DNA of 64,000 nt from Proteromonas lacertae. Taxonomy: Eukaryota. Below are positions 25,663 to 60,379 of this stretch, in pieces. Within the stretch, counting starts at the first letter, position 1, and the number at the start of each line of letters is the position of its first letter. The translations under genes and the position numbers were made by a program. The stretch lies in NCBI GenBank assembly GCA_002245135.1, contig NGBS01000018.1, positions 1 to 64,000 on the forward strand. The letters run 5' to 3'. The notes beneath the pieces were generated by a model, which was not told the DNA's origin, searched no databases, and worked only from the letters and a program-made list of their open reading frames with translations.

Positions 25663-28600
25663 ATGAGTGGTGGATTAATTCCTTTAAATAGTGGAAAAGT
25701 ATATATAATGTGTATTAATACATTTTTAGAAAAATTCTGGTGGAGATAGTTATACAGATGATTTTTTAGATGAATTATTGTCTGCTGGTATGTATAAAAG
25801 ATTATATAATTGCGTATAGAACCTCCTCCTGTAACAAAAGAAAAGTATTTTCGTTATTTATTTATATTCTAGGTCTAAAAATAAGTATTATGTATTTTAT
25901 GTTTTTTTAGAAAGTCAAAATCACACAAATTAGGAGGTATAACTATAATAATTCAAAATTTGTATAATAGATTCAATGGGAAGTACAAAACATCATCATA
26001 AATCAAAACATAAAAATAGTTCAGTATAATTATTAACAATGTTATGTATAATAATATTAGAAATTCGATTCATCTGAAGATTCATATCCTGCACCACCAG
26101 TAAATAAACCCAAGAAATTTTCAATGCCAGGAGATGGTTTTGATGATGATTTATTTGGATCATTAGGAGCTGATAAACTATTACCAAAGAATAAAAAATC
26201 AATGTCAAATCAACAAGAAGAACCAAATACATACGTATAATATATAATCATAAATAATAATTGAATTTAGGGAGATATAAATCAAAATAAATCACCATTA
26301 GCAGCTACTAATAAGCAATTTAATCCTAAATCTAACAATATAATAGACAGTAGTACAGATTTTGATGATATTTATAAACCAAATCCAAAATCTTCTCCAA
26401 TTCCACAGAATATTCCTGTAAAAAATGAACCTAAAGCAGATTCAAACAGATAATAATAATAGAAATAGAAATGGTGAAGATTATGATAATGATGATGAAA
26501 ATAATAACAATAATCAGGATGAAGATGAGGATTCAGTGAATTTTGACGATGATGATGTAGATATATCATTTTGAATGTGTTATAATAATATTATCTATTG
26601 AAAATATCTTTAATTCATTATTTTTTACATATTAGAAAGTCCAAAGAAGCCAGAAAAACAACCAGAAAAGCCAAAACCAAGTGAAACTAATTCTAGAAAT
26701 AAGAGTAGTACAAAAAATAGTAAGAATAAAGAGTTTGATGATGATGAATTACCACTTTCTAATGATAATAATGAGAATGATGATGATGATGATGATGATG
26801 ATTTACAAATACCAACTATAGTGACAAAACCTCGAATTCAAGCAAGACAAAGCAAAGATAATGATAATAATGATGATAGTAAGAAAAGTACTACAATTAA
26901 TAATTATATTGTCAATAGATATAGATAAGAAGAAAAAGAAAGAAAAGTCAGATAGCATTTATTCAAATGAATCAGATGTATAAACTTATACATAATAATA
27001 ATTATTAGGGTGATATAAGTAAATCAATAGATGATTTATTTACAGAAAATAGACCAAAAAGAGGTGCAAAACCAGCTGGAAGACCAAAAGCTACTGGTAG
27101 AATAGTATGATATATCATTCCATTATATATATTAATTTATAGAAAATACCATCAGTTTTTGCTAATAATCCTTCTGCTGCTGCTCTTCCTTCACCATTTA
27201 CCAATAATCCATCTGCTACTCCTCTTCCTTCACCATTTATGCAACCACCAGCCACCAGCTACCAGCTCCTTCAACTTCACCATTTGCCAATAATCCATCT
27301 GCTACTCCTCTTCCTTCACCTTTTGCACAACCACCAGTACCAGCTCCTTCAGCTTCACCATTTGCCAAATAACCCTTCAGCTGCTTCTCTTCCTTCACCA
27401 TTTATGCAACCACCAGCACCAGCTCCAGCTCCTTCAGCTTCACCATTTGCCAATAATCCATCTGCTACTCCTCTTCCTTCACCATTTATGCACAACCACC
27501 AGTACCAGCTCCTTCAGCTTCTCCAGCACCAGCTCCATCATTAATACCCAATCCAAATCCACTACCAGCAAAAGATGCATCACCAAAGAAAAGAGAAAGA
27601 GAATTATTACAACAAGCAGTAGCAAAACAGAAGGCATTGGAAGAAGAATTAGAAAAGATTAAAGAAGAAAATGCTAAACTGAAGGAAGATTATGAAAATG
27701 TAGAGAAAGAAAGAGATGAATTGAAATCAAAATATGATAAATTAGATGAAAGTAATTCAAATCTTAAAGATGATATGAAAAAAGCAGTTGAAGAAAAAGA
27801 GGACATTGAATTGAAATATGAAACTCTGAGAAAACAAACATCAACTGATATAGAATTACAACTAACAACGCAAAAGAATAAATATGAATCACAACTAGAA
27901 ACAATAAGAGTAGAATGTGAAATGGAAAATAAGAAATTATTAGCTGAAAAAGATGATAAAATCATTGAATTATCAAGTGAATTAAAACAACTGAAGTTAG
28001 ATTTTGACTATTTGAAGAAAACAACAGGAAATACAGAAGATAAATACAAATCAGAAATTGATGAAAAAGAAAAGAAATATAAGAATCAAATCAAAGAATT
28101 AAGTGAGTCTTTAGAAAAGAATAAAGAAGATTATGATGATTATAAGAAGAGAACAGATTTAGAATTATCATTAATGAAAGAAAAACATTCAAAAGAAGTT
28201 CAAAAATTAACAAAAATGAAAGATGATGAAATAGAATCTTTGAGACAAAGACTTCAAGATGTTCAATCAATCGATAAAGTGTTGGAGAAATTACATGATA
28301 ATAGTTCATCCATAAAATCATTATATGAAAGAGTAAATGCAGATAGAGATGAATATGTAAATAAGGTATATATATATATATATATATATATTGTTTATAT
28401 TTTTATATAGCAAGAATTTACTTTAAATGTAAGAGAGAATCTAATCAAAGATTTAGAAACATCATCAATGACTCAAAGAGACAGAATGTTGAAAGAAGCA
28501 AATAGATTACAAGTATATATATTTTATTCATTTATTTATTATTAGGAATTATTGTCATATATGGAACAACGAAATGAAACAATTCAAGTAAAAGAATATG

Positions 28601-29498
28601 AAGATCTCAGAAGACTTCAACAAGAAAATGCAAAATTAACATCACTCCATTCATCTTTAAAAGAAGAATATGATATATTAAGAGAAAGTATAGCAGCAGA
28701 AAAAGGAAAAATAAAAGAAGATAGAATGTTATTCCAAAAAGAAAAAGTAGAACAAGAAGTGTTGATGGCTGATAGAAGAGAAGCATTAGCAGCAAAAGAG
28801 AGAGATTTGGAGTTTGAAAGAACAAATTTATTCAATAAAAAGAAACAATATGAAGAATTAATAGATCGAAATAGAAGATATAAAGATTCATTTGATTTGG
28901 AAATTGAACAAAGAAGAAATGAATTAAATGCAAGAGAAGATTCAGTATTAAGTCAAGAGCATCAGTTGAGATTGAAAATGAATGAAGTTATTAAGAAAGA
29001 GGGCGAAATAGCACGATTAAGGAAAGAATTAGATCATGACAGAAATGAATTTAAACTAACAGCTGAAACTTTTGAGAGAAGAAGTATATATATTGTTTTT
29101 TATATATGATATTAGTGACTGAGAAAGCAAAATGGATTAAATCTAAATCAGACGAAGCTGATAAGGAGAAAGAACAAGCATTGATGTTGAGAAAGAGTAT
29201 TGATGAAAGAGAATTGATGTTGAAAGAAAAAGAAAATGAACTTAGTATAATAACATTATTTATTGTTGTTGAATAGTTCAAAAGCAATATGAAATTTCTA
29301 ATCAATTAGCTCAGTTAGGTCAAGTAAAATATGATTATTATAAATCAAAATCACCCAAAATGATTAATATGGATTTAAATTCAGTAAAACAACAAACTCC
29401 AAAACTTAATTCTTTTCCACTTCCTTCAACCTGAACAACAACCATTTATGAATGATACTTTTAGTAATACTATATCTACTATAAATCCAAATCTTTCA

Positions 29499-29540
<42 letters not shown>

Positions 29541-29730
29541 GTATATTCTCAACCAGCATTTCAACCAATTGAAGTTGTTCAATCACCTCGTCAAAGAAGA
29601 AGAGAAAATGGTGTAGCAAGAAAAATGAGTATATATATTTGTTATTTATGAAATATTGATAGGTTTTCACGATGAATTAAATCTAGCCTTGGAATTAGCT
29701 AGAAATGAAGTAAATAATTACAAAAAATAA
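25663..29730 (+). CDS. Large coiled-coil protein, FBF1 (centriole distal appendage)-like
   Basis: Low-complexity many-exon N-terminus, Pro-rich repeats, and a long coiled coil (LEKLHDNSSSIKSLYERV..QEFTLNVRENLIKDLE..EANRLQELLSYMEQR..RLQQENAKL) resembling the FBF1 C-terminus by eye. Confidence 0.55.
26563..26628 (+). other. U12-type AT-AC intron (66 nt)
   Basis: GAT|ATATCATTT...TCTTTAAT(26607-26614)...TTTTTTAC|ATA TTA GAA restores ..DDVD-ILESPKKPE. The GT-AG alternative (26557-26635) is out of frame. Confidence 0.85.
27158..27540 (+). repeat. Coding tandem repeat encoding FANNPSATPLPSPF(M/A)QPP.PAPSASP
   Basis: About five copies of AATAATCC(A/T)TC(T/A)GCT(A/G)CTCCTCTTCCTTCACC(A/T)TTT with Pro-rich spacers. 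Confidence 0.85.
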
Positions 29731-29809
29731 ATTATAATATAATTAATTTCATTTATTCTTTAATTCAACAGAAACAATTCTAAAAAGTGATATACATATA
29801 ATTATATTT

Positions 29810-31341
29810 CTAACTAGCTGATCCATCCATACCAAATTCTCTTGTCCATTGTTCATATCTCAACAAATCATCTTTAGAGACAGTTCTCTTCGTTTTAGAA
29901 ATAACATACTCAATATCATTCTATATAAATAACATAATGACAATATACACAATTCACTAGATCATTAATCATTTCAACTTGATTCATCTGTTGTAGATCT
30001 TCATAAGTCTTTAAAATATTTCTTCTTCTCAAATCATTCTCTTCATTGATATTAGCTGGAGTATATGGTCTAAACATCTGATTTACATTATCATAACAGA
30101 AATATCTTGTTTGTTGAATTCTTTTCACAGGTTGCATTGATGCTTCTTTACACATTGTCGTAATATCAGAACCAGAAAATCCATCAGTTGCATCTAAGAA
30201 TCTATCATAACTTTGTGGATTATTTAATATTTCATTTGGTATTCCTTTTAATGAATTATTGAATAATACTCTTCTTGCCTCTTTATCTGGTAATGGAATG
30301 TAAATTCTTTTTTCAAATCTTCTTCTAGCTGCTTTATCTATTTCCCAAGGCTAATTAATATAATAATATATAAAATATAATATATACCATATTAGTTGCT
30401 CCTAATACCAATACTCTTTTACTAATATCACTATTGGATGTTACACCTTGCATTTCTATTAATAATTGAGTTTTAATACGTCTAGAAGCTTCATTTTCAC
30501 CCTATTAATATGAATTATATATATATAAATAGAAATACTTCAGTTCTTTCTGTTGCAATTGAATCAATTTCATCAATAAATATAACAGAAGGTGCTTTCT
30601 TCCTTGCTAATGAGAATAATGATCTAATCATCTTCTCAGATTCACCTTGCCATTTCGAGACTAAATCTGATGAACTAATTGAGAAGAATGAACCTTTAAT
30701 TTGACATGCAACTACTTTAGCTAAATATGACTTACCAGTACCAGGTGGCCCATACAGTAATATACCACTCCAAGGGTGTAAATCACCTGTAAACATGTGA
30801 CCAAATTTAGTTGGCAGTTCAATTGCATCTCTTAGTGCATCTTTAGCTTCTTTTAATCCTGCTACATTGTCCCATGTTAATCCTGATACACTAGCCATAG
30901 CATCTTCCAATTGTTTTTCAAAACCTTCCAATTCTGATGGTTCATTATTATTTCCTGATTGATTTAATGCATTACTACCTTGAGGATTATTAGAGTTAGG
31001 ATATTGTTGTTGTTGTTGTTGTTGTTGTTGGAGTAATTGCGGGGGTGGATCAGTAGGAAATTGGTTTGGATTTACAATATTTGGTATAACACCATTACTC
31101 TTTAGTCTTTCTGCCTTTTTAAGAAACACATCTAAATGTTGCAATGCTACCTCTCCCGATTTAGATTTATCAGCTATTTTAATAGAATAACATAAAATAT
31201 ACACTTTGCTACAATGGCTAGAATTTCACACACTGTAATGTAACAACCACAAGCTGTAGATGGATCACTGTTTACTAACGCATCACCCCATTTTTCTAAT
31301 TTCATAATATGATCCCATTGTCCCATAAACTGTTGTCCCAT
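29810..31341 (-). CDS. VPS4: VPS4-like AAA+ ATPase
   Basis: [75 protein letters not shown]-terminal QWTREFG; divergent MIT-like N-terminus and poly-Q linker. Confidence 0.88.
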
Positions 31342-31563: not shown

Positions 31564-32512
31564 ATGCTTAGCAATAGAAAATTTGTTCAACATGAGGTTG
31601 CTCGACAACAACGAATTTATGAAGAATCTATCAGAAAAGCAAAGCCACATCCAGATATAGCATCATTGGATTTTAATGAACCAATAAAATGTCCAAAGAA
31701 TCGTAGAAAGGAGTTGATGATTGAAAGTATATCAATATATAATTATAGTATAGGAAGAAATAAAGAGATCGAGTTTGAGAATGAAGTGTTACAGAGACAT
31801 CTACTTGATATAAAGAAGCATGAAACTGCCAGAGTATTTATAAATTTGAATTTATTGTTAATAGCCACCAAAGTCACCTATTGGTTTTAAACCCAAGTCT
31901 ATGAATTATACAAGAAGAAAAGCGGAATATGAAAAGATAAACAAAGAGAACGCAATGTTCTTGAAAGAATTACAAAATATTAAACCACAGTATTCTTATA
32001 AAGAAGATATGAAGAATTTTGAATTAACAAAGAAATATTTAGAAGTGTCAAGCGCAAGAGGATATAATCCATATTTAGTAGTACATAAAAAACAACAACA
32101 ACCAAGTCCACGTTCATTACCTCCATTATCAGGAAGAAAAAATGAAAATAGTCAAAATCCTCAACAACCAAAGAAAGACAAATCAAAATCATATAAAAAG
32201 AAAGTGACGAATGGAATTAATACAAAGAAAGAAGAAGATATTAAAGAGAAGAATGAAGAAGTTAAGCAGGAAGAAAATGAAGTAAAAGAAAAAACAGAAA
32301 TAGAAGAAAATAAACAGGAAGAAAGTGAAGTGAATGAAGCTAATGAAAATCCAAATGAAAATAATGAACAAACATCAAAAGAAGAAGGTAAAAATGAAAA
32401 GCCAAGTGAATCTGTGAATGACGAATATAAGGAAGGTGAAAAGCCAGAAACTGATGAGAATGATAATTTTGATGATAAATTTAATGAAGTAAATAAGTTG
32501 CTAAATGAATAA
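31564..32512 (+). CDS. CFAP97/Hemingway-domain protein
   Basis: RNKEIEFENEVLQRHLLDIKK...SMNYTRRKAEYEKINKENAMFLKELQNIKPQYS pattern; two short introns; acidic tail. Confidence 0.7.
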
Positions 32513-32552
32513 TAGTGTTTATTTTTTATTTATTTTTATTTTAGGGGTTTTA

Positions 32553-32700
32553 GGGGACCAGCCATATTTCATCTACACAAAAGTAAGTAGTAGCACCAAA
32601 ATTAGGCCGTTCCATTTCCCACAGAAATTCATTTGTAACTTTGTACAATGCTCCTAGTCTCAATAGGGGCTTTAGTTTCCTTACTCATTAGTTTGAGGCT
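32553..32700 (-). ncRNA. RNU12: U12 small nuclear RNA (minor spliceosome)
   Basis: Minus strand begins AGCCTCAAACTAATGAGTAAGGAAA (cf. the conserved U12 5' end GCCTTAAACT(T/A)ATGAGTAAGGAAA). Branch-pairing GTAAGGA at 32684-32678, stem-loop GCCCCTA/TAGGAGC, Sm-like site AATTTCTG, 3' stem with apical TTACTTTT loop; ~148 nt. Confidence 0.9.
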
Positions 32701-33168
32701 AAAGAAAACAATAGATTACAATTTTAAATAACTTATTTTTTATATGAATTATTTTATGGGATATTGTGAGGCTAAATTTATATTTCTTTTCTAATTAATG
32801 TAGAGGTATGATTTTTTAAAGTATTTAAAACAATAATAAACAACACTTTTGAATAATAGTAAAAATAGTAAAAATAGTTGTATTATGATTCTGTAGAAAG
32901 ATGTGATAACTCATAAAAATGATTAATTAACAACATAATATTTTTCAATTATCATGCAATGCAGTTGTATTTACAAAATTTTACTTCTCATCTCTTTCTA
33001 CAACACATCAAAAATAGATTTAAAATTTATTATGATCAAGCCAAATGCTTGATGATCCTTTTTGATTGATTTGATTGGCTATTCTCACAATCATTTGAAT
33101 TAATCATAACTCGTTTATTTGGTATTTTCATCTTATTATTATAAATAATTTAGTTTATAGAAAGTGAT

Positions 33169-36146
33169 ATGGACTCATTTATAAGTTTGTTTAAGGGTGC
33201 TGATGTAAAAGTGAATTTACATTTTAGTGAAGGTGATGGTTTAAATTACCGTATATCAAACAAATGCATGGAAAAAAAAGTGTATTTTACTGAAGATGCA
33301 CCAGATGAAGTAGTTTGTTATGGTTGTTGTAAGAAGGTTGATAACATTAAGGATGATGATCCGAGAATTATTATTTCTAAAAGTGGTATTCAGTTTAAGG
33401 GGAATCCTACAGAAGCATCGAATGAAGTCTCAAAGATGTTTAAGAAAGATGACTATTATTATATCATATTTGATATGAAGAAGAGGGAAATATCAATTCA
33501 ACTGCATGATAAAGACAATATGTCATTAAAATTGTGTAGTGTTATATACAGTGGCATTCCAGAAGTAGTTTATCCTTTTACCAATTTGTTATTTAATACT
33601 GTTGAAGGTGACGATGATGATACTTCACAACAATTATCAAAAATATCAAGTGGTATGAGTAGTTATCTAGCTAGTTATAAAAGAATGAGAAAACCAAGTG
33701 TTGTGTTTGGTGGTGATAATAATAAAAGAATGAAGTTAGAAGAAGATAGTTTTGTGAAGATAATGAACAGTTTAGTAGAAGACACTGATGTAGATTTTTT
33801 AAGATTTAAAGATGATAGTGTTAAAGTTTTTCAATTTCCTAAAAGAATGATTTTAACGAGAGATTGTTATAAAGTTATGTATGAAGATATTATCAAAATA
33901 ATGAGATTCATCAGTTATCCAACAGTTGTTATAAGAGGACAACCTGGTATAGGTAAAACAAGTTTTTTGTATTACCTATTACATTGTTTAAAGACAAGAG
34001 ATGATTATAGATATCATGATAGAGATAAAACAATAGAAAGAAAAATAAAAGGTATATATATAGTAAAGGGAAAGAAGAATGGTAGTAAAACTGATAAAGT
34101 AGTATATGAACTTGACCAAAAAACCCAAAAAGTATCTATTAAGAAAAATCCAAACTTGAGTAATGTTACAGAATCAATAATAATAGTTGATACTTATAGT
34201 GGTGAATTTAATCCAAATAATATCGTAATTTCCATTAGTTCTCCAGATGAACATAATATTGAAGAATACACAAATAGAGATGATCCAATAAAATTATATT
34301 TTGAAACATTAAGTTATGAAGAATTAGAAAAATGGTTTGATAAATGTATAGATATTGACAGAGATAAAAAATTTAAAGATATTTGTGAAGCTTATGGTAA
34401 TATTCCAAGACAAATTTACTTTCATCATTTATATAAAAAGAATTATGGTAGAGATTATTGGAAATATTATGTGAAATTAATAGATAGTGTAGTTGGTACA
34501 ATTGGTTATAATAATTTTGTTGGTAATTATATGAAAGAAAGTCAATTAACCAAAAATAATGGATTATCGAATATAATATTAAGATATGATTATAAAAAAG
34601 AAATGAATGTGGTATTAGGTCATGAAGTATTAGTACCAAAAGATCATTTAAAATTCATATCTGAAAAAGTTGAAAAATACATAGTGTGTAAATTCTATCC
34701 TCCTAAAAATGAATCTGAATATGATGAAATATGTGATTATTATGAACAACTTAATAATGATATAAGAAGAAAAGAAAATGAGTTAAAAAGAATGAATAAT
34801 GTTAAAGAAAAGGAATTTACCCAAAAAGAAATAGCAAAAGATAAAGTAATGAAGAGAATTGCAATGAAGCAAATGATATCATATGAATTGAGTATGGAAA
34901 TAATAAAATTGAATGTAAAAGAAGATAAGAAATTTATGTTAAACTATGAAAAGCCAATCTCATTTAGTCATCCTGATGGTGGAAAACATTATGTTTATAT
35001 TATATTGGATGAAAATAATTATTTTGATTTAATAATGAATGGAATATTTATAAAGATATTCTTAGATGATGATGAATTATCAATTGATGAAAGAAGAATA
35101 ACAGAATCAATCAAAGTATAAATAATCTATATTTATATAATATAATATAATAGGAATATAATAAATGTAAAGAATGTCAAATTAAGTGTTGTTTTTTAAA
35201 TGAAAAGAGAACACAGATCTTTCCAAATAATGTAAAACCAAAACCAAAAGGTAAAACTAATGAAAATAGTAATGTTAAAAAAACAAAAAGTAATGATGAA
35301 GATGATGTATTTACTGATATAAATGATAAAAGTCTTTATTTAATGAGAAAATGTTTTTATTCAATTTTGAATCTTATTTGTCCTGAAGATATAGATATAT
35401 CTTATCCACATCAAAAGAACTATTTAATATTTGGACAAACTGGAATAGGAAAATCAATATTAGCGAATGTTATAAAAGAATATATTCATGAAAAAAGGAA
35501 TGGAGTAGTTAAAATAAAACATAAAAATAAAAATGGAAAGAGAATAGAAGGTTATAATGAAGATAAAATAGACAGAGATTATATAATAATTAGTGATGGA
35601 GGTGTAATTGGTGAAGATGATTATGGTGATGCAAAAATGATAATATTATTAGCTGATCCATCTGATGAAAAGTTTAAGACATTTGAGAGTAAGAGATGTC
35701 CTCTGGTGATGTATATACCTCCATTTACAAAAGAAGAAGTAGAAGACGTAATAATTCTAGAAAATCCTAAATATAATATACCTACAAAACATTTTTTAAA
35801 TAGATCTGAATTAAGAGAAGGTTTAACAGCATTATCTGGAGATATAAAGGGTTATGAAAAAAGAAAAGATTTATATAGAAAGAATTATGAATATTATGGA
35901 GGTGTAATTGGAAATATAGAATGTGATGAAGAAACAATAAAAAGTAAGCTTAATGAAATGAAGAAAGAAAATAAATTAGAAAATATAATTAATGGAATTA
36001 ATGTATGTTCTCTTTCAAAAGGTAAATATAACAAAGTATTAATATATGAAACATGTGAAGAAGATGTTACTGAATCTAATCATTTGATATTTATATCTGA
36101 AACAATTCAACAAATGGCAAAGAAAATCTTATTCAAAAATAATTGA
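33169..36146 (+). CDS. SPRY-like header + P-loop NTPase + REase-like segment + second P-loop NTPase (Crinkler/RHS-like), ~979 aa
   Basis: Intron 35116-35153 joins the two ORFs in frame. Walker A GQPGIGKT and GQTGIGKS; Walker B-like IIIVD / IIISD; ISISSPD / ILLADPS; YGNIPR / YGGVIG; ENNYFDLIMNGIFIKI. Confidence 0.7.
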
Positions 36147-36454: not shown

Positions 36455-36816
36455 TTGTTCTTAATACCTTTATTGAGATATAGTCATGAAAGAGGTATAA
36501 ATGGTATAATTCGATGGATATTGAAAGATAAAAATGAACAAACAAACAAACAAGAAAGAGATAATTATTATAATAAGTATTATTTCTTTCCTTTTTGTAG
36601 AATCATTTGATAAAAACAACATAATATTATACTTCTCATCTCTTTCTACAACACATCAAAAATTGATTTAAAATTTATTATGATCAAGCCAAATGCTTGA
36701 TGATCCTTTTTGATTGATTTGATTGGCTATTCTCACAATCATTTGAATTATTCATAACTCCTTTATTTGGTATTTTTATATCGTTATTATAAATAATTTA
36801 GTTTATAGAAAGTGAT

Positions 36817-39304
36817 ATGAGTGTTGTTGTAACTAAAGATAAAATGATGAGAAAACCAAGTGTTGCGTTTGGTGGTGATAATAATAAAAGAATGAAGTTA
36901 GAAGAAGATAGTTTTGTGAAGATAATGAACAGTTTAGTAGAAGACACTGATGTAGATTTTTTAAGATTTAAAGATGATAGTGTTAAAGTTTTTCAATTTC
37001 CTAAAAGAATGATTTTAACGAGAGATTGTTATAAAGTTATGTATGAAGATATTATCAAAATAATGAGATTCATCAGTTATCCAACAGTTGTTATAAGAGG
37101 ACAACCTGGTATAGGTAAAACAAGTTTTTTGTATTACCTATTACATTGTTTAAAGACAAGAGATGATTATAGATATCATGATAGAGATAAAACAATAGAA
37201 AGAAAAATAAAAGGTATATATATAGTAAAGGGAAAGAAGAATGGTAGTAAAACTGATAAAGTAGTATATGAACTTGACCAAAAAACCCAAAAAGTATCTA
37301 TTAAGAAAAATCCAGACTTGAATGATGTTACAGAATCAATAATAATAGTTGATACTTATAGTGGTGAATTTAATCCAAATAATATCGTAATTTCCATTAG
37401 TTCACCAGATGAAGATAATATTGAAAAATACAAAGATAGAAAATATAAAACTGAATTATATTTCGAAACATTAAGTTATGAAGAATTAGAAAAATGGTTT
37501 GATAAATGTATAGATATTGACAGAGATAAAAAATTTAAAGATATTTGTGAAGCTTATGGTAATATTCCAAGACAAATTTACTTTCATCATTTATATAAAA
37601 AGAATTATGGTAGAGATTATTGGAAATATTATGTGAAATTAATAGATAGTGTAGTTGGTACAATTGGTTATAATAATTTTGTTGGTAATTATATGAAAGA
37701 AAGTCAATTAACCAAAAATAATGGATTATCGAATATAATATTAAGATATGATTATAAAAAAGAAATGAATGTGGTATTAGGTCATGAAGTATTAGTACCA
37801 AAAGATCATTTAAAATTCATATCTGAAAAAGTTGAAAAATACATAGTGTGTAAATTCTATCCTCCTAAAAATGAATCTGAATATGATGAAATATGTGATT
37901 ATTATGAACAACTTAATAATGATATAAGAAGAAAAGAAAATGAGTTAAAAAGAATGAATAATGTTAAAGAAAAGGAATTTACCCAAAAAGAAATAGCAAA
38001 AGATAAAGTAATGAAGAGAATTGCAATGAAGCAAATGATATCATATGAATTGAGTATGGAAATAATAAAATTGAATGTAAAAGAAGATAAGAAATTTATG
38101 TTAAACTATGAAAAGCCAATCTCATTTAGTCATCCTGATGGTGGAAAACATTATGTTTGTATTATATTGGATGAAAATAATTATTTTGATTTAATAATGA
38201 ATGGAATATTTATAAAGATATTCTTAGATGATGATGAATTATCAATTGATGAAAGAAGAATAACAGAATCAATCAAAGTATAAATAATCTATATTTATAT
38301 AATATAATATAATAGGAATATAATAAATGTAAAGAATGTCAAATTAAGTGTTGTTTTTTAAATGAAAAGAGAACACAGATCTTTCCAAATAATGTAAAAC
38401 CAAAACCAAAAGGTAAAACTAATGAAAATAGTAATGTTAAAAAAACAAAAAGTAATGATGAAGATGATGTATTTACTGATATAAATGATAAAAGTCTTTA
38501 TTTAATGAGAAAATGTTTTTATTCAATTTTGAATCTTATTTGTCCTGAAGATATAGATATATCTTATCCACACCAAAAGAACTATTTAATATTTGGACAA
38601 ACTGGAATAGGAAAATCAATATTAGCGAATGTTATAAAAGAATATATTCATGAAAAAAGGAATGGAGTAGTTAAAATAAAACATATAGTTGAAAATGGAG
38701 TTAGAAGAGGTCATAATGAAGATAAAATAGACAGAGATTATATAATAATTAGTGATGGAGGTGTAATTGGTGAAGATGATTATGGTGATGCAAAAATGAT
38801 AATATTATTAGCTGATCCATCTGATGAAAAGTTTAAGACATTTGAGAGTAAGAGATGTCCTCTGGTGATGTATATACCTCCATTTACAAAAGAAGAAGTA
38901 GAAGACGTAATAATTCTAGAAAATCCTAAATATAATATACCTACAAAACATTTTTTAAATAGATCTGAATTAAGAGAAGGTTTAACAGCATTATCTGGAG
39001 ATATAAAGGGTTATGAAAAAGAAAAGATTTATATAGAAAGAATTATGAATATTATGGAGGTGTAATTGGAAATATAGAATGTGATGAAGAAACAATAAAA
39101 AGTAAGCTTAATGAAATGAAGAAAGAAAATAAATTAGAAAATATAATTAATGGAATTAATGTATGTTCTCTTTCAAAAGGTAAATATAACAAAGTATTAA
39201 TATATGAAACATGTGAAGAAGATGTTACTGAATCTAATCATTTGATATTTATATCTGAAACAATTCAACAAATGGCAAAGAAAATCTTATTCAAAAATAA
39301 TTGA
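36817..39304 (+). CDS. Second copy of the double P-loop NTPase gene, lacking the SPRY-like header; one-base frameshift near 39016-39020
   Basis: Near-identical to copy 1 from MRKPS onward; intron 38278-38315; A5 here vs A6 in copy 1 (35857-35862). Confidence 0.7.
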
Positions 39305-43632: not shown

Positions 43633-45890
43633 TTAGCCTAACGAAGGAGGTTGATAGACTTCTTGGACTATTATAAATAAATTTATGAATTTATACGTTC
43701 TGTTTCTGTTGTATTACCAGAATACCATCCAAAGTTCAATTGCTTGTATTGATTATGGATAGCTTCACTAAATATTGCTTCATATACATCATTATGTTTT
43801 GCTACTTTAGATATCTTCCATTCTTCTATTGTAGTATAAAAATATATTACTATACTCAAATTGAAGCTATTAGCTTTAGCAGTTTCTTTGATTTTAATCC
43901 ACCACCCTTCTTCACCTCCAGATTCTTCTTTCTTCATTACCTGTTTCTCATACATCACTGAAAATGATTCTAATAGGAAAGCTAATACAACATTCATTAC
44001 TAAATAAACTGATAATAAATTCCAAACAATAAAATATATTCTAGAATAACTATTTGTTCCAGCTACAACTCCTTCCATTACTATTGGCCAATTATTGACA
44101 ATCTGTTGCTCCCATAACGTAACCATTGAATTTGGTAAATTATCAAAGTTATTATGATAATAATTCAATACTCCATAACTACAATTTGCTATTTTATCAT
44201 TGTTTCTAGGTAATTTTCCTGCAAATAATTCCATTCCAATAATTGAATATGAATAATAAACACATAATAATAATACAATATATCTACCTAATGCTGGTAC
44301 AATAATTTTGAGAGAATTAATCATAGCATCAAACCTTCTCACAAGCCTTAATAATCTCAATAAACGAAGCATTCTGAGTATTAATAACACTTGTGTAATT
44401 TCTTGACTATTGTTTAAACCAACATAACTTAAGACTGTACCAAATAAAGAACCAACTACAGCGACAAAATCAATCTGTTTTATATAATAATAATTATTAT
44501 AAATACATCATTAAAAATAGACATTGTAAAATAAGTTACTAAACCAAATCCAATCATTTTAAGTATTAATTCAATTGAAAATAAAACTACCATTATTGTT
44601 TGAATATATGTAAATTTTGATAATCCACTAGTTGATGTTTCTGCTTGAATCATCTATTAATATAAATAAATACATAAATATGTTAATAATACTTCAATGA
44701 TAATAATAATAGAATTAGCTAATACTAATAAATCAAAGAAATAAATAACAAATTTGTTATGAGAAAATAAATTCTCCAAATGAGCTTGAATTTTTTGAAA
44801 CTTAGTGCTACCATCAGAACTACCATAGAAGATTGAAACATTTGACTTTATCTTTTTAGCTTTCAACTAATACAAATACATAAATACATAATACAATAAT
44901 ACATTTGTATAAGTGTATATAATTTTACAGAAATCATTTCTATTTACTTCTCCATATCGATGTACATCAACTGTATCAAAACATAAACCAACTATTTCAC
45001 TTGGAATGTTCTTTTGAAAACATATCATAAACTCTATTTTGAATAATTATTATTATAAATTATACTGATAAAATCTTGTCTTGTTACTACTTTACCATCT
45101 TCTCCTTTTATTCCATATTCTTTCAGTCTTGCTGATTGCGTTTTCAATGAATTGAATGCCATATTTAAACCATCTACTAATTTACCATAATGAGTTCTAT
45201 ATAAATAATAAATAATATAATATTCATATGTTTTATATACAATAATTTACTCTTTGTTCTTGCTTCATAATTTGAATAAATCAAAGCCAACACTAAATTG
45301 AATAGACAATACATTCCTATTGATTGATAAACAACGAAGAATAATGAAAACCATCTGTTACATCTATATACAGGCATCATAATATCAGGATAATTAGCAT
45401 TACAAACACAATAATTAAAGAAAACATTAATACAAAATACAATATATATATATATATATATGATATGTTGTTAATAGAATATAAAGCTGAACCATTGAAT
45501 TAACTAACGAGTTAAAATAATCCGTACAATCACCAGGTTTATAGGTTGAACAATAAGCAGCAGTGCGAGTTGGATCTCTCTATTAAAAAATTATAAAAAG
45601 AAAAAAAACATTACAAATATACATCACAGTGATTATTATCCATTCCACTGAAGAAAACAAAGCCAAATATTGAGAATACAAGTAAAGTAACAAAAATTAA
45701 TAGCAATATATTTACAATTTCAGGTATAACAGTTAGAATACCTGAGAATATTCTTCTTATATTTCTTTTTCGTTTAATCAGTAGAAATGGTCTGAAATAT
45801 TCTGAAAACTTGAGGGATTTTTGGGATAAATATGAGTAAAACCCAATTAGCAGTCATACATATTAATAATACAACTATTACCACACTCCA

Positions 45891-45925
<35 letters not shown>

Positions 45926-46386
45926 AAAATAATATGTATAAATTCAATAGATTAATCATACTTTGCTTTTAAAAATGGTTTTGTTAAACATAAAATATCC
46001 ATATATGTATCAAACCAGAAAAATGCTAGAATAAGACCTTGTATTAAGCATTGGATCCAAGGCGTTAGAGGAACTGTTATATTTGATCCATTAATAGAGG
46101 AAGGCCTTTCATAGAATGAAAAAAACATATAAAATACACACATCATCATGTGTAATACATTCCATTGTTTACTGTGATATAAGATATAGAAGAATCTAAA
46201 TAATAAATGTAAAATATACCTTTTATTACTTGACATATTGCGTAGGATAGTACGACCAGCTAGAGCATCTTGTGCATATCTAGCTGCATCTTCGTATTTG
46301 TTAGAAGTAGCTCCGAATCTATATATTAATATGAATACCTAATTAGATTACTGGACGTATTGGAAACCTGAGTTTAACAACGACAT
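43633..46386 (-). CDS. TPC: Two-pore calcium channel
   Basis: Two 6-TM repeats; pore 1 LYILLTTANYPDIMMPVY; pore 2 NNFDNLPNSMVTLWEQQIVNNWPIVMEG; S4 LRMLRLLRLLRL; EF-hand-like linker. Confidence 0.9.
45400..45466 (-). other. U12-type AT-AA intron (67 nt) in TPC pore loop 1
   Basis: AC|ATATCATAT...TTTTCTTTAAT...TTTGTAA|T GCT AAT TAT CCT restores LLTTANYPD. There is no AG in the interval and read-through hits a stop. Confidence 0.85.
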
Positions 46387-49400: not shown

Positions 49401-49437
<37 letters not shown>

Positions 49438-52400: not shown

Positions 52401-55400
52401 GGAAATATATGAAGTAATCTTAAAGAACTTTTTAAATGGAAAAATCATAGATCATCAAACTAAAACTAATACTATTCAGTTTAATATGTTATTAGATGTT
52501 TTATTCAAAGTATGTGGTAAATCTCCATTAGATATATTGCTAAGATTTATGAGTGATTTAAAAGAATTAATAACAGTTGATTCAGAAGCTGCCAATAATA
52601 GAAAAGCAATATTTACAGTCTTTGGTTGGCAAAAACAGTTTTTAGATTTCTTCCATTTGTTATATGAAAGAAGAAGTGAATTTGAAGCAACAGGAAAGAT
52701 AACAATCAATCAAGTAGCTTTATTAATCTGTGAATTAATGAATTTCATTCATTTAGATTGTTTACATCGTGAAAACTTAACACCAGAAGTGAGATTAAAT
52801 GCATTTGAAGAATCAATGTTATTATTAAGTCATTTACCATTAGAAGAATGTTCATTATTATATATTAATACAATATGGGGATTAATGCAAAGATTATTCT
52901 TAGAAGAAATGAATAGAGAACAATCAAAACCATGTGAGAAACCATTACATATAATTACCTTTGAGAAATTGTATTTATTAATAGAAGAATATATTGAAGC
53001 TCCTCCACAATTAATTCCAAAATATGATGAGAATTCAAGATGGAAATTATCTGATCAATTGTACAAACTAATCACAAAATCCTCACCTTATATTCTACAA
53101 AGTTATGAAGCTAAGAATAGACCAGTTGTTGAAGATAAAATAATGTGTTTAGAATTGAGAGTTTGTTTAAGTTTAATGAAAGAAACAGGTACTTGGATAA
53201 CACCAGATCGATTAGATACAAAAGGAATTCCATTTGCATCAGAAGCCATAAAAAGATTCATGTCAACAACCACGCATTATTCAGCTACTTTACCTAAGAA
53301 TCAAGGATTAATGTATTTATTAATGACTGAAGTTAATAATATAATAACTCAAAGTAAGTTATCGCCCAATGATGCTTGGTTAAAAACAATGACTGAACTT
53401 CGAACAAAATTAACAGAAAGTCATAAAAACACATTACAAGATCTTATACAAGAAGCTAATAAAGCCATGCCAAAAGGATTCTTCAAGAAACCAAGTGAAG
53501 AAGATATAAAGAGATCAAGAGCAATCATTGAGAATGCTATGAAAATGTATATGATGACATCTACTAATATACAATACACTGAATGGTTCCACTGTATGCA
53601 AATAATATTACAAACTTTAAATATAAATGCTGAAAGTATTATTACCTTACAATTACCTGAGATTATTATATCCAGAAGATTGAATCAATATAAAGAATTA
53701 CAGTGTAATGATGTTTATAGTAGAATTGAGAATTATAATGTGAATGATTCAATTAATGCAATAATACAATATGAATGGAATAGAATAATTAGTAATATTC
53801 AAGGCCTGCATTCGAGCCAAACAACATAACTTGTACAATTGGGAGAAAATCCTTAGAACATTAACACACGAAAGAGGACCTTGGGGAAATGCAACAGAAA
53901 AGAAAATACCAAAATATTGGAAATTACAAAACAAATTAAATGAATTCAGTACAAGACATAAATTAAAGATCAATATACATGGTATAAATCACGAAATGTC
54001 AAGTGTATTTACTGATACTGAAGGTGATAATAGCGTAAAAAGAACAAGAGCACAGTCTCAAATAGAAATGGATAATCAGTTATTAAAAGATATAGTCGCA
54101 GCAGCTTCCAAAAGAGCAAAGAAGAATACAACTGGTGGTAATAATTTGACTAGAAATAGAACATCCAGTACGAATGAACCACAGTTATTACATCATTTAA
54201 TAACTCAATACGAAGTTGAATTAATCACTCCATTATTACCAGTAAAAGGTGTTTTACAAATAACTAAAGACAAATTGATATTCACAAGAGATTCAATATA
54301 TGATACTGAATTATACAGTGGAGTACCTATTGCTGGTAAGAAAGGAGTAAAGAAAGAATCATTATTAAAAGCACCACATAATATCCAAGTTCCATTCTCA
54401 ATGATTACTTCAATAGAGAATAGAAGATATCAATTAAGACAAGTTGCCTTTGAAATCTTTACAATTGGTCATAGAACACTCTTCTTTAATATGAAGAATA
54501 AATCATCAAGAGATGAAGTAACTAATATGATTGGAAATATCCATTTACCCAATATGGCACCATTTGTTGGTAATTTATCTACTCAAGAAGTGTTAGGTAG
54601 ATCAGGAATATGTCAGAAATGGTGTAGAAGAGAAATATCTAACTTTGAATATTTAATGGAATTGAATCGTTTGGCTGGTAGAACTTATAACGATTTAGCT
54701 CAATATCCAGTAATGCCTTGGATATTGAAAGATTATAAAAGTGAAACTTTAGATCTAAATGATCCAGAAATATACAGAGATTTCACAAAACCAATGGGAG
54801 CTCAATTACCAGAAAGAAGAGAAGAAATAGCAGAGAAATATCAATTAATGAAAGAAGAATATCAACGAATGAAATCAACTACATCACCTGAAGATGATAA
54901 TAATGATGATTTAGGTATTATGTGTCCTCCACCTCGTCATTATGCTGTACATTATAGTAATCCAGCTTCCGTGTTATGGTATTTCATTAGATTAGAACCA
55001 TTTACAACAGGTCATATTTACTTACAAGATGGTGTATTTGATAAGACAGATAGACAGTTCTTTAGTGTAGAAGAAGCTTATGTTAGTGCAACAACCAATG
55101 ATACTGATGTGAAAGAATTAACACCAGAATGGTTCTTATTACCAGAGTTTTTAGTGAATAACAACAATCTGAATTTAGGTACAAAACAGACTGGTGAATC
55201 AATAGGTAATGTGGTATTACCAAAATGGGCATCTTCTCCTGAAGATTTCATTATAAAACATAGAATGGCATTAGAAAGTGAATATGTATCAGAACATTTA
55301 CCTGATTGGATTGATCTAATATTCGGTTATAAACAAAGAGGTATTGCGGCAGAAGAAGCATTTAATTGTTATAATCATTTAACTTATGAAGGAAGTGTGA

Positions 55401-56945
55401 AATTAGATTCATTATATGAAAAGGATAAAGCTACGTTTGAAAGGGCTTGTAGTATGATTGACAATTTTGGTCAAACACCTTCACAATTGTTTACATTGCC
55501 ACATCCACATCGTGAGAGTAATACAACAAGAATTTATAACATCTTGCCAATGATATCTCAGAATAATTACTATTGTAACAGATGTTGTAAATGTATTGGA
55601 TTATATAATTTGAAGATTGAAAGAATACCAATGATAATGTATAAAGGTCAAGTTTCACAAGATGCAATACTGTTTATAGGTCATAATGAACAGAATAATA
55701 AAATAATAACAATAGATCCAAATAGATCAATTGGTTTACATTCATGGAAATTGAATCTAAAGACAAATACTATGGAGTTTTTACAAGATGTTTCAATGGT
55801 TCAACCTGCTACATCTACTAAGGTGGGTTATCCATATGCTATTAATATTCATATTAATGACATGTCTTTATTAACACAGCAATTATATGCTATTTCAAGT
55901 GATATATCTTTTTTTAATTCGTTTATATATATGTAAATTATAGTTTCTTTAATTTATATGTAAGGTTCAAAGTTATTCACCTGTGGCCATTGGGATTTAT
56001 CATTCAAAATCACTTCTACAGTGAATGGTTCATTATTATACAGTTATGCCACACATAAAGACATTGTTACTTGTATTGCTGTATCTGAAGATGATCAAAC
56101 TATTGTTACTGGTTCAATTGATAATAATGTTCATATATACTTAAATGCACCTGGTTTTGGATTAGTTTTAAGAAAAATATTGTATATTATATTTTATTAT
56201 TTATTATTTATAGAACTGGTCATGATGACGTAGTAAGATGTGTAGCTGTTAATACAATGTTAGATTGTTTAGTAAGTGGTAGTGCTGATGGTACTGCTAT
56301 TATATTCACAGTAATGAAAGGTGCTTATGTTTGTACAATTAACTTGGCAGAATCAAGCCTAGATGATTTGAGAGAGAATCAGAAGATTAAACCATCGTGG
56401 ATAGCAATCTCTCCAATTGGTTATATTATCATTTATAGTGAAGATGATTTTACATTGAGATTATTTAGGTATGATTATATTTTTAAGTTGTAAATAGTTT
56501 GAATGGAAAATTGATAAATAGAATTGAAATAAAAGAAAGACTTTATTGTTTAAGATTAAGTGAAGATGGTGAGTTTTTAATATCAGGCGGAGATAGTAAG
56601 AGAATTGTAGTTAGAGAAATAAGAACACTTAAAGAAATAACAAGTGAATATAATAATTGTAATGGTTTAAATAAATCTAGAATGATATTATTCAATCAAG
56701 TATTATATATATATATATATATTGATTATTATATTATATAGTTACCACCATTTGAATCAATAATACGTTATATCGGTTATACAAAACATGAATCACAATT
56801 AGTTATTGGTTTACAAAATGGACAGATTCTCATTATTGGTTCTTCTATTAGACAAATTCAATCAGCTCCTATTATGTCTGCAAGTCTACCAATCCCACCT
56901 AATGATGCTGTTGATGAAAGTCAAGAAAATCCTCAATTACCATAA
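46531..56945 (+). CDS. BEACH-domain protein (neurobeachin/LvsA-like): ConA-like, PH-BEACH, BEACH, WD40
   Basis: W.RREISNFEYLMELNRLAGRTYNDLAQYPVMPWIL, HYS, DVKELTPEWF, VVLPKWA, LESEYVSEHLPDWIDLIFGYKQRG, NFGQTPSQLF; many introns; starts MGNQAS. Confidence 0.95.
55904..55963 (+). other. U12-type AT-AA intron (60 nt) in the BEACH WD40 region
   Basis: GAT|ATATCTTTT...TTTCTTTAAT(55944-55953)...TGTAA|GGT TCA AAG restores SDGSKLFTCGHWD, the conserved DG..LF..GHWD spacing. Confidence 0.75.
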
Positions 56946-57139
56946 ATATTTTATTATTATTATTTTAAATTCACATATATTGTTCTTATTGTTGTTATGT
57001 ATGTTTTTTTTCAAAAATGAAAATAAAATCAATACTTAATAACTACTTAACAATATTTACACTTATATATATAAAACTAAAGTCAATAACAATGATACTT
57101 CTAACTAACTAATGTAGATACAAACGAATATAATATCCT

Positions 57140-57733
57140 CTAAACTAAAGGAGGTGGTTTTGGAAGAGTATTTGATTCATCTTTAGGAACAGTTGGAATT
57201 TGAGGTTCACTTTGTCTCTCTGCAGTACGAGGATGTTTTATTATTGGAGAAGATGACCGGCTTTTCTTACCTTCTTCATCTTCTTCGATATAATATAGAT
57301 CAATACATTCCAACAGTGATGCTAATGATCCAGCATAGGATCTTTTCTATTGAAAATAGTCAAAACAAAATATACTTCTTGTATGATAGGTCCACCATCG
57401 TCCATTGACTCTAAACTGCTAACTGAAGCAGAATCTAAATTAAATAAATAATAAATATACTAGCTGATGACATGGATATAGTTCTTTGATTCTTTTTTTC
57501 TTTAAGCTTTCTTTTTTCACAAGAATTACACACAAGTCTTCTCTTATACCTACAAAATAATTATATAAACAATACCTCTTCCTCAGACATTGTTTACCTT
57601 GTGGATGATCGCACGTACCATAACCAAGACACTGACAATGGTTACATGAGTCTGAAGAACACCATATACACATATTCCGAGGTGGACCAGGTTTGGAGTT
57701 ATGGACAACTTCATTTTTAGTAATTTGAAACAT
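57140..57733 (-). CDS. Small Cys/His-rich putative zinc-binding protein
   Basis: CIWC..CNHCQC..CDHPQGKQC..RY|KRRLVCNSCEKRK; three short GT-AG introns; ends PKPPPLV*. Confidence 0.55.
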
Positions 57734-58224
57734 TTATCGACTGAAACACAATTCGAAAAACAAGAGAAACGTAGTATCTTTTTCGAAATGATCAGATCTT
57801 GATCAAAACGAAATTTATTTTAATTTCATCAAGGAAAATAGTTAGTAACTATATGTTTAATTTTTATTATAAATTATATAAAAAAGTTAGAGGTAATGTA
57901 GTTTTTATAGATGCTATTAATGAATATGACGTATTTTAACAGATACACTTAAGTTGCATGAATTATGTTGTTATAATTCGATTACTGATAATTATCCATT
58001 GTTATTGAGAATGATATTCAATAAATGATAGTTAATCTAAATTAGTGTAATAGTTTATTTCTTTTAACATAATTGATTTGTAGTACAGTGTTGTATTGAC
58101 AGTCAATGTAAAGTGTTAATTTGATAGTATAAGTTATATTTTATTCATCAAATTTTGGATAATTCTTCAACTCAAGCAAATCTGATTAAAATAATGAAAT
58201 TAAACAAACATAAAAATTAAAAAT

Positions 58225-59305
58225 TTAAGGAAACATTGAATCAAAGTATTGATCCATTTTTTCTTCTTCAGTAACAACTTTATGTGATTCATTATTCCAA
58301 TGTTCATCAGCACTTGGGCCTATTTCATCCTCACTTTCACTGCTGCTGCTACTACTACTACTACTACTACTTTCACTCTCACTACTTGAGTCTTCACTTG
58401 ATGATTCAGAAGAAGAAGAAGATTCTTTATTTATACGTTTTCTTTTCATTGGTTTCTCGTTTCCTTTTTTTATTTCACAATTGTTATTATCAACTGGAGA
58501 CACTGGTGGTGGTGGTGGTTCAACAGTAGGTATTTTAGATTTCTTAATATTTGTTTTATTATCATCTATATTTTTATCATTTTTATTTTCACTTTCTTGT
58601 TTATTCTTTAGTTTTTCGTATTCTTTATTTATATATTTCAGATATTTATGTGAATGTTCTATTATTTGAAAATATAAATATATATATATTATACTATTTT
58701 CTTCATCCATTTCAACTTTATTCTTCTTATTCTTCTTCTTTTTCTGTTTCTTCTTTTCTAATTCATGTTCAACAGCTTTCATCTTCTTATAAAACAGTTT
58801 ATAAACGCATTCAGGACATACTCTTATTTTAACCAAAGCATTTTGTTTGACACCATGCTCTATATATCCAAAATTAACTTCATAACTCTTTAATTCTGCT
58901 ATTTCATCACATGCTAAATTTGCACAAATGAATTGACCTTTTCCTTTTATTACTTCTTTTTCTGTTCTCCATCTCATTCCTATTTTACCCTCTTTATACT
59001 TAGTCATATCACATAGTGCATATTCCTTAAACAATCTATCATAATATTTCTTACAAAGCCTTGATTCCCAAGAAGTATTTTTCTTATCTTCTTCATCATT
59101 TCTAACAAATTTAAAATTCTCTTTAATTACATCTATATCTTTCTTTATATTCTTATGTGAATCCTAACATAATCAAATTCTTAAAATACTTTGTATATCT
59201 TAATATACTCATCGATCAATTGTTTATGCTGTTCATATCTTATTTCTGCTTTTGTTTTCTTCTAAAATACATTACATAGCCGATAAAACATACTTTTTCA
59301 TTCAT
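58225..59305 (-). CDS. FRA10AC1: FRA10AC1 homologue
   Basis: YYDRLFKEYALCDMTKYKEGKIGMRWRTEKEVIKGKGQFICAN..LKSYEVNFGYIEHGVKQNALVKIRVCPEC; ends DQYFDSMFP. Confidence 0.93.
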
Positions 59306-59332
59306 CAAGCCAAGTTTTTAAAATATATTGAA

Positions 59333-60365
59333 ATGAAAGAAAACTCATTTATAACCCAAGAAAATGCTATGTTATTCACTGATAGATCTTTGTTGAAAGC
59401 ATCATCCAGGTATTTGGATTTTTATTATTGTAGAGTAACTATAATCACATTAATATATAACTACATATTATTAATGGTTGGATTTAGATTATTTTCAAAG
59501 ATTCCAGATTTTGTATATTGTTCATACAACAATAATAAAATGGGAGACTTAGTTTGCACAAAAGTATCACTAAATTCATTATATATATAGAATTCATATG
59601 TACAAAGATATTTACTTGAATTAATTGTTTTGTTTTGTTTATTTGCACTTCTATCAAGTATATATTTTCAATTAATTTATACCTAATAGGCTTAATCGCT
59701 TATAATGGAGACAGGTTGTATGTACCATCTTCAAATATATGGACAGCTAGTAAACTAATAAAATTGACGCTATTAAGATTATTACATTATATTCAAATCA
59801 TTTATCAAATCGTTTTATATTATCTTGTTACATCATTCAAGAATCAAATAAAACACTCAATCCTTATATCATTTTTTGTGTATATAAATGTATGAATTAT
59901 GACTTCCTTAACATATTATTTACTGTCAGGAAGAAATTAACAAAAGAACAGAATGTGAAATAGAATTCACCAACAATTACAATTTCTATATCATTTTATT
60001 TTTGATTGTTATTCTAACAATTCTCTTTCTAATGTCATTTATTATAAAAGATAAGTATATTTATTATGTGCTTATATTATTATAGTTCTGAGATTATTGA
60101 TTCTTTATCACCTGTTCATATAAATAAAAATCATTTATCAACAACTTACATTGATCAACATCATCTGTTTTTTACTATCTTTTATTTTGACCCAAATGTA
60201 TAATATTATATATAATGATAATATTGTATTGTGTATTAGGATATACGATTATTTTTAGAAACTAGAACAGCTTTCCATTATGCTATTAATTTGAAGAATA
60301 AGTATCTTAGACATGTATTGAGAGGAGTAATACTCTGTCATGTTTTTATGTTATTTATTCTCTAA
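59333..60365 (+). CDS. Hypothetical multi-TM membrane protein containing a U12-type intron
   Basis: Hydrophobic exons separated by short GT-AG introns and one AT-AC intron; the frame stays open from 59924 through two GT-AG introns to TAA 60363-60365. Confidence 0.6.
59866..59923 (+). other. U12-type AT-AC intron (58 nt)
   Basis: CTT|ATATCATTT...TTCCTTAAC(59904-59912, exact U12 branch consensus)...TTTAC|TGT CAG GAA. Confidence 0.88.
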
Positions 60366-60379
60366 TTAATATAATTTAT

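What the first reader, a model, noticed from the sequence alone, without database searches (positions are those of the whole stretch)
26563..59923. A variant minor-intron code: four AT-starting introns with an ATATC(A/T)T donor instead of ATATCCTT
Seen: introns 26563-26628 (+), 45400-45466 (-), 55904-55963 (+) and 59866-59923 (+) begin ATATCATTT, ATATCATAT, ATATCTTTT and ATATCATTT. They carry TCTTTAAT (three) or TCCTTAAC (one) 10-14 nt before the 3' end and are 58-67 nt long, about twice the local GT-AG introns. None has the canonical +6 C. Inference: TCTTTAAT still pairs with U12 GUAAGGA via G.U wobbles, and the shifted donor predicts compensatory changes in U11 and U6atac. Four in 64 kb suggests a high minor-intron density that gene finders would miss.
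Basis: partly seen in the sequence, partly recalled or inferred. Interest (0 to 1): 0.85.

Follow-up and report, generated by a model that had tools for sequence, protein, structure and literature searches.

The report
Minor introns with shifted start signal
Four introns in this AT-rich protist start with ATATCA or ATATCT instead of the textbook ATATCC, and are likely cut out by the rare "minor" splicing machine, whose U12 RNA lies in the same stretch unchanged in its branch-pairing part, so the RNA that reads the intron start would have relaxed or changed.

Summary
Homologue profiles, given no motif, rank the claimed AT-AA junctions first of 1543 (neurobeachin-like gene) and joint first of 3122 (two-pore channel) open alternatives. 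A 91%-identical relative has an insert at the neurobeachin site with compatible signals and a diverged interior. A U12 snRNA gene lies in the window (32552-32701) with the Rfam-consensus branch-pairing sequence, so TCTTTAAT pairs through two G.U wobbles. None of 105 modelled GT-AG introns has that motif. The organism looks Blastocystis-like (inferred, unconfirmed). Abundant AT-starting minor introns are already described in Blastocystis ST1, but there 336 of 340 begin ATATCC and none ATATCA; here 0 of 4 have +6 C. Loss of one C by sequencing error is very unlikely. U11 and U6atac are not in the window, so compensation is untested; published U6atac 'CC variants' weaken the U6atac half. Density 3.7% (CI 1-9%) is not clearly above ST1's 1%. 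No RNA evidence. The scan noted a different variant donor in another genome (e1-9916214, unchecked). Verdict: likely real U12-type introns with a lineage-specific donor; new variant.

The parts
26563..26628 (+). Intron 1, AT-AC, 66 nt, phase 0, donor ATATCATT, in an FBF1-like coiled-coil gene
   Evidence: Retention gives stops, removal opens the frame; the only open GT/GC-AG alternatives are 90-147 nt with AAG acceptors. Low-complexity flanks, so no homology test. A donor-only gene model picks these exact ends at penalties -2 and -4, not at 0.
26607..26614 (+). Branch-site motif TCTTTAAT of intron 1
   Evidence: 6 Watson-Crick pairs, 2 G.U and 1 mismatch with U12 nt 18-26
32552..32701 (-). U12 snRNA gene (Rfam RF00007)
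   Evidence: 56.9 bits, gathering 53, E 1.9e-8, full model length; Sm-like site and the stem-loop III UACUUU loop are present
32676..32684 (-). U12 branch-recognition sequence GUAAGGAAA, equal to the Rfam consensus
45400..45466 (-). Intron 2, AT-AA, 67 nt, phase 2, donor ATATCATA, in the first pore region of a two-pore channel gene
   Evidence: Joint rank 1 of 3122 open junctions (tie is a 1-nt slide, TA-AT, giving the same peptide); best GT-AG alternative rank 2042, 37 bits lower
45414..45421 (-). Branch-site motif TCTTTAAT of intron 2
   Evidence: 7 Watson-Crick pairs and 2 G.U
55904..55963 (+). Intron 3, AT-AA, 60 nt, phase 0, donor ATATCTTT, in the WD40 part of a neurobeachin-like (BEACH) gene
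   Evidence: Rank 1 of 1543 open junctions (the next is 0.7 bits lower); best GT-AG alternative rank 98, 9.5 bits lower; exact ends also chosen by a motif-blind gene model; 64-nt insert at the same site in relative P0001
55946..55953 (+). Branch-site motif TCTTTAAT of intron 3
   Evidence: the read-through of P0001 requires TCNTT(A/G)AT at the matching place
59866..59923 (+). Intron 4, AT-AC, 58 nt, phase 0, donor ATATCATT, in a gene for an unidentified membrane protein
   Evidence: Retention gives stops; carries the canonical branch motif. Weakest of the four: three in-frame GT-AG alternatives exist, the best 59890-59929, and no homologue was found
59905..59912 (+). Canonical branch-site motif TCCTTAAC of intron 4
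   Evidence: 8 Watson-Crick pairs and 1 mismatch

Best explanation
These four AT-starting stretches interrupt reading frames and are likely U12-type introns, removed by a minor spliceosome whose donor consensus in this lineage would be ATATC(A/T)T rather than ATATCCT. Shown: the motifs, the frame interruptions, homology-defined ends for introns 2 and 3, and a U12 gene with a consensus branch-pairing sequence. Inferred: U12 pairs with TCTTTAAT through two G.U wobbles, which lets C drift to T under strong AT pressure (intron interiors about 5% C). At the branch site, where the partner G is known to be unchanged, all 6 lost C's became T; at donor +6, 3 of 4 became A, which cannot pair with G. So +6 is probably no longer read by a G. 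The likeliest cause is a change in U11 at the base opposite +6 (about 50%), with U6atac possibly not pairing there at all; otherwise the pair is simply dispensable. The +1 A and +5 C, plus the branch motif, are then what separates these donors from the local major donor GTAT(A/T)(T/A).
For: Homology ranks. Relative P0001 with conserved signal positions and diverged interior, 64 versus 60 nt. U12 gene in the window. Branch motif in 4 of 4 versus 0 of 105 GT-AG introns; +5 C in 4 of 4 versus 6 of 105. ST1 contrast 336 of 340 (Fisher test). Branch-site versus donor substitution contrast 6T/0A versus 1T/3A (hypergeometric 4/120 = 0.033, computed by hand). Donor C5/C6 pair with U11 G6/G7 and U6atac G14/G15 (PMC4980772 passages). 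The published tolerance rule allows only C to T at +5 or +6 (PMC2846911 passages). 899 CC runs in 24.7 kb of open frames show no C loss.
Against: Only four introns, so the consensus is rough; 3 A + 1 T fits a free position (0.11) almost as well as an A-preferring one (0.31). Intron 4 has in-frame GT-AG alternatives and intron 1 has no homology test. P0001 cannot show +6, which is the third base of a Ser codon, so ATATCC is not excluded in the relative. The assembly has many apparent 1-nt indels, including in three host genes. Free duplex energies of introns 2 and 3 (-5.0) do not stand out from the best 5% of major introns (-5.3). The motif-blind gene model gave exact ends for 1 of 4 and nearby AT introns for 2 more. 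In one search the homologue segments were cut with the claimed peptide as query, a mild circularity. ST1 is the right comparison only if the Blastocystis affiliation holds.
Confidence: 0.72

Rival explanations
1. Real U12-type introns with fully canonical U11 and U6atac: +6 is merely tolerated as a mismatch under AT pressure, with no co-evolution of any snRNA.
For: U12 is unchanged in its branch-pairing part. The major donor has also drifted to AT (+5 G in 6 of 105). +6 T is common in Physarum (bioRxiv 2020.10.12.336362 passages). The +6 data fit a free position.
Against: ST1 keeps +6 C in 336 of 340 while relaxing +7 and +8 (284 and 183 of 340). Branch-site changes are all wobble-compatible, donor changes mostly not. 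This overlaps the best explanation and differs only in the cause.
Confidence: 0.4
2. AT-starting introns spliced by the major spliceosome (U2-type AT-AC/AT-AA), since the local major donor GTAT(A/T)T differs from these only at +1 and +5.
For: The two donors are similar in this genome; at least one long GT-AG intron exists.
Against: +5 C in 4 of 4 versus 6 of 105 and the branch motif in 4 of 4 versus 0 of 105; a full-length U12 gene is present.
Confidence: 0.06
3. Sequencing artefact: loss of one C from CC in an indel-rich assembly turns ATATCCA/ATATCCT into ATATCA/ATATCT.
For: Apparent frameshifts are scattered through the window; ST1 has ATATCC followed by non-T in 52 of 336.
Against: 0 losses among 899 CC runs and 150 ATCC sites in open frames, and ATATCC occurs 55 times in the window. 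Those stretches were chosen for being open, which biases the rate low, but even a 2% rate gives about 1e-7 for 4 of 4. The branch changes are substitutions, and P0001 shares the final T.
Confidence: 0.04
4. The set is mixed: introns 2 and 3 are real, but intron 4 (and perhaps 1) is removed as a GT-AG intron, leaving too few cases to call a consensus.
For: A 40-nt GTATGA...CAG intron at 59890-59929 keeps the frame; no homologue decides it.
Against: Intron 4 has the canonical branch motif 11 nt before an AC, a motif absent from 105 major introns; CAG acceptors are 2 of 105. Intron 1's alternatives are at least 90 nt with AAG acceptors.
Confidence: 0.15

Closest known systems
Blastocystis ST1 U12-type introns (Gentekaki 2017, PMC5608401; Larue and Roy 2023, PMC10639083)
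   Same: AT-starting minor introns longer than ~30-nt GT-AG introns; about 1% of introns (346 of 35412); phase 0 common (49% there, 3 of 4 here); U12 machinery present.
   Different: ST1 donors are ATATCC in 336 of 340 and never ATATCA; displayed ST1 introns are mostly 37-50 nt with the branch motif closer to the end; AT-AA was 1 of 60 displayed rows (counted by eye) versus 2 of 4 here.
Physarum polycephalum transformed minor system (bioRxiv 2020.10.12.336362)
   Same: Lineage-specific change of minor splice signals; +6 T donors; AT-AA is 27% of non-canonical ends.
   Different: There the branch site changed (TTTGA) with compensating changes in U12; here U12 is unchanged and the donor +6 is mostly A. 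No sign here of a massive expansion.
Canonical U12-type introns (RTATCCTT donor, TCCTTAAC branch; PMC2846911, PMC4980772)
   Same: RTATC core, branch motif near the 3' end, pairing with U12 nt 18-26.
   Different: +6 is A or T; the stated rule allows only C to T at +5 or +6; the branch motif is mostly TCTTTAAT.
U6atac 'CC variant' (Davila Lopez 2008, PMC2396436)
   Same: A precedent, in oomycete stramenopiles among others, for U6atac not pairing with the donor beyond +4/+5 (register inferred).
   Different: Introns of those species were reported as canonical; the U6atac of this organism is unknown.

Membership tests
U12-type (minor) introns | 5' splice site RTATCCTT (C to T tolerated at +5 or +6) | tested here: not met
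   ATATC core in 4 of 4; +6 is A in 3 and T in 1, so only intron 3 obeys the rule
U12-type (minor) introns | Branch site complementary to U12 near the 3' end | tested here: met
   6-8 Watson-Crick pairs plus up to 2 G.U with the window's own U12; motif ends 10-14 nt from the 3' end; 0 of 105 major introns
U12-type (minor) introns | Termini AT-AC, GT-AG or known non-canonical (AT-AA) | tested here: met
   2 AT-AC and 2 AT-AA; the AT-AA ends are fixed by homology; AT-AA is the commonest non-canonical type in animals and plants
U12-type (minor) introns | U12 snRNA in the genome | tested here: met
   RF00007 above gathering score
U12-type (minor) introns | U11, U4atac, U6atac and U11/U12 proteins in the genome, with donor complementarity | not testable with these tools
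   None in the window at E up to 5; no genome held
U12-type (minor) introns | Actually excised from RNA, by the minor spliceosome | not testable with these tools
   No RNA run could be laid; support is indirect
U12-type (minor) introns | Position conserved as a minor intron in other species | tested here: inconclusive
   Intron 3 site shared with one close relative at protein level only; the three distant loci hold no RTATCCTT
U2-type introns of this genome | Donor GTAT(A/T), TAG acceptor, about 32 nt, no branch consensus | tested here: not met
Blastocystis (organism) | Named close homologues or phylogenetic placement | tested here: inconclusive
For: ~30-nt introns, AT-starting minor introns, He_PIG membrane proteins (their link to Blastocystis is recalled, from no call), DNA-encoded stops and low GC as in basal isolates. 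Against: dynein heavy chain and FBF1-like genes in a genus said to have lost nearly all cilia genes

The most novel reading that the evidence does not exclude
This lineage has rewritten the minor 5' splice-site code: U11 carries U in place of G opposite +6, so ATATCAT is the new consensus for several hundred to a thousand AT-starting introns (about half ending AA), invisible to standard annotation. It would be a natural case of donor-snRNA co-evolution within a genus whose other members are strictly canonical.
Probability: 0.3. Interest if true: 0.75.

Novelty: new variant of a known kind. Interest (0 to 1): 0.52.

Why it matters
The minor donor is among the most conserved splice signals, and its +6 C is nearly invariant even in Blastocystis ST1. 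A lineage that dropped it, with U12 unchanged, gives a natural test of which snRNA enforces +6 and bears on the unexplained U6atac CC variant. It also means human-trained classifiers and GT-AG gene finders would probably miss or mis-splice these genes; my own GT-AG-only model mis-spliced or broke the genes at these sites. One search of the genome for U11 and U6atac would settle the mechanism.

Tried and rejected
No whole genome is held. No RNA holder was listed for 54000-62000; that is no evidence either way. Rfam at E up to 5 found no U11, U4atac or U6atac in the window. The metagenome scan gave 3 distant loci (39-43% identity), of no use. The cluster look-up of 10 proteins gave no names. The representative search with the first exon of gene 4 gave one repeat protein, judged spurious. 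The protein atlas did not complete. GT-starting minor introns: the 4 GTATC+branch matches are antisense to genes, and none of 6 GTATC-starting modelled introns has the branch motif. A fifth candidate at 59988-60050 was set aside (poor U12 pairing, would leave a 4-7 nt exon). Whole-molecule folding of U12 was uninformative (z -0.63). TGTTTGTT is not tied to gene ends. The CC-loss artefact was tested and rejected (the last part of that script, a comparison of tandem copies, crashed and was not repeated). The first major-intron filter left one overlapping call in; one search has the corrected counts. A search for a known minor intron in two-pore channel or NBEAL genes listed nothing relevant among 10 of 282.
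Full report
Observation. The four stretches exist as described: 66, 67, 60 and 58 nt, ends AT-AC, AT-AA, AT-AA, AT-AC, branch-like motif ending 14, 14, 10 and 11 nt before the 3' end. The window is about 26% GC and gene-dense. A gene model I trained on the window called 107 GT-AG introns; 2 overlapped the claimed introns and were dropped, leaving 105 with median 32 nt, donor GTAT in 97, TAG acceptor in 99, +5 C in 6 and the branch motif in 0. The model under-calls long introns: it missed a 70-nt GT-AG intron.

Chance. A strict pattern written after seeing the four matched 5 sites against 0.57 in shuffles; the extra one is antisense. A looser pattern is only modestly enriched (18 versus 9.5). 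The stronger test is homology. For intron 2 (two-pore channel; 29 of 37 homologues span the site) and intron 3 (neurobeachin-like; 117 of 119), I scored every stop-free junction within about 45-60 nt of the claimed ends against a profile of homologues. The claimed ends ranked joint first of 3122 and first of 1543; the best GT-AG alternatives were 37 and 9.5 bits lower. For intron 3 several 60-nt slides score within 2 bits, so homology fixes the length and the approximate place, and the motif fixes the base. The chance that such an insert has ATATC at its start and the branch motif near its end is about 6e-6.

A relative. P0001, from an unnamed contig, is 91% identical and reads through the intron 3 site for 22 codons before running on in the wrong frame. 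Its codons require ATHTCNTTY at the start, TCNTT(A/G)AT 11 nt from the end, and a last base A or C; the insert is 64 nt with a diverged interior. This supports the intron and the final T of the branch motif. It cannot show +6. It also lacks a frameshift that the window has near 53803, which shows that the assembly carries indel errors.

Introns 1 and 4 are weaker. Retention gives stops in both. Intron 1 lies in low-complexity sequence of an FBF1-like gene (Pfam E 1e-5, below cut-off). Intron 4 has three in-frame GT-AG alternatives and no homologue, but it has the canonical branch motif.

The machine. Its branch-pairing nt 18-26 equal the consensus. In the canonical register introns 2 and 3 form 7 Watson-Crick and 2 G.U pairs, intron 4 forms 8 with one mismatch, and intron 1 forms 6 plus 2 G.U with one mismatch. 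Free duplex energies separate only intron 4 clearly from major introns. U11, U4atac and U6atac are not in the window.

Comparison. The organism is probably a Blastocystis-like stramenopile (my inference, about 70%; no named hit confirms it). Gentekaki 2017 (PMC5608401; passages, section 8, S1 Table, part 1 of S11 Data and searches in it) reports 346 U12 introns in ST1. In S11 Data, which is cut at 4 million characters so that part of the ST7 sheet was not searched, 340 introns start ATAT: 336 ATATCC, 3 ATATCT, 0 ATATCA. Larue and Roy 2023 (PMC10639083, passages) count 253, 77% AT-AC. Lind 2025 (PMC12129017, passages and section 5; preprint PMC10690189, passages) describes AT-rich isolates; the words U12 and minor do not occur in its main text, and I did not read its supplements. 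So abundant AT-starting minor introns are known for the genus; the +6 change is what is new. Five searches (4, 20, 20, 15 and 15 papers listed of 4, 40, 71, 18 and 380) listed no title or abstract describing an ATATCA consensus; the library lacks most subscription journals.

Mechanism. Donor C5/C6 pair with U11 G6/G7 and U6atac G14/G15 (PMC4980772, passages). The tolerance rule in PMC2846911 (passages) allows C to T only. Physarum shows +6 T and a U12-compensated branch change (bioRxiv 2020.10.12.336362, passages). PMC2396436 (passages) reports a U6atac variant in oomycetes and others that pairs poorly with canonical donors; by my register it keeps only the +4 and +5 pairs, the positions retained here. 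I reached that paper through scan note e1-9916214. Internal control: opposite the unchanged U12 G's, 6 of 6 lost C's became T; at +6, 3 of 4 became A (4/120 = 0.033 by hand). I conclude that +6 is probably not read by a G, most simply through a change in U11; this is inferred and untested. PMC7367187 and PMC7644725 (passages) added single +6 T examples and nothing decisive.

Artefact. Loss of one C from CC would mimic all four donors. None of 899 CC runs in 24.7 kb of open frames shows it, and ATATCC occurs 55 times in the window. The stretches were selected as open, but even a 2% rate leaves about 1e-7.

Density. 4 of 109 is 3.7% (CI 1.0-9.1%), P 0.023 against ST1's rate, in a window picked for this feature: suggestive only.

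Verdict. Likely real U12-type introns (about 0.9 for introns 2 and 3, 0.8 for 1 and 4) with a lineage-specific loss of the +6 C. They work like minor introns but fail the textbook donor rule in 3 of 4 cases, so I file them as a new variant. Interest 0.52; about 0.75 if U11 proves to have co-evolved.

Noticed in passing
window 32552-32701 (-) and 32694-32777: U12 snRNA gene directly downstream of and convergent with a protein gene ending at 32512. Its 5' end differs from the Rfam consensus at two bases of the U6atac-pairing region (UAGCCUC versus aUGCCUu). A 10-nt stretch at its 5' start recurs about 70 nt upstream, next to a possible promoter element.
   Followed up: partly
whole window: The major donor is GTAT(A/T)(T/A) with +3 A in 105 of 105 and +5 G in only 6 of 105, so U1/U6 pairing may also be shifted.
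   Followed up: partly
window 1-3572, 25976-29730, 31564-32512: Divergent dynein heavy chain (stalk and AAA_9 hits), an FBF1-like gene and a gene resembling CFAP97 (recalled, no Pfam hit): cilia-linked genes, unexpected if this is a non-flagellated Blastocystis.
   Followed up: no
window about 544-1483, 26442, 27250-27490, 39024, 45800, 53803: Apparent 1-nt frameshifts in coding sequence, probably assembly errors; the one near 53803 is absent in P0001.
   Followed up: partly
window 33154-36146 and 36802-39304: Two near-identical tandem copies of a gene for a P-loop-like protein with weak Pfam hits; the second is shorter at the start and has a frameshift.
   Followed up: no
window 4237-6897, 8667-10227: He_PIG-domain single-pass membrane proteins; the only long match is an unnamed metagenome protein, P0186, at 24% identity.
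   Followed up: partly
window 59988-60050 (+): A second ATATCATTTT donor-like site in gene 4, in frame (60 or 63 nt), with a poor branch match; set aside but not excluded.
   Followed up: partly
window 45892-45961 (-): 70-nt GT-AG intron lengthened by a TA repeat, in the same channel gene as intron 2, which also has a TA run.
   Followed up: partly
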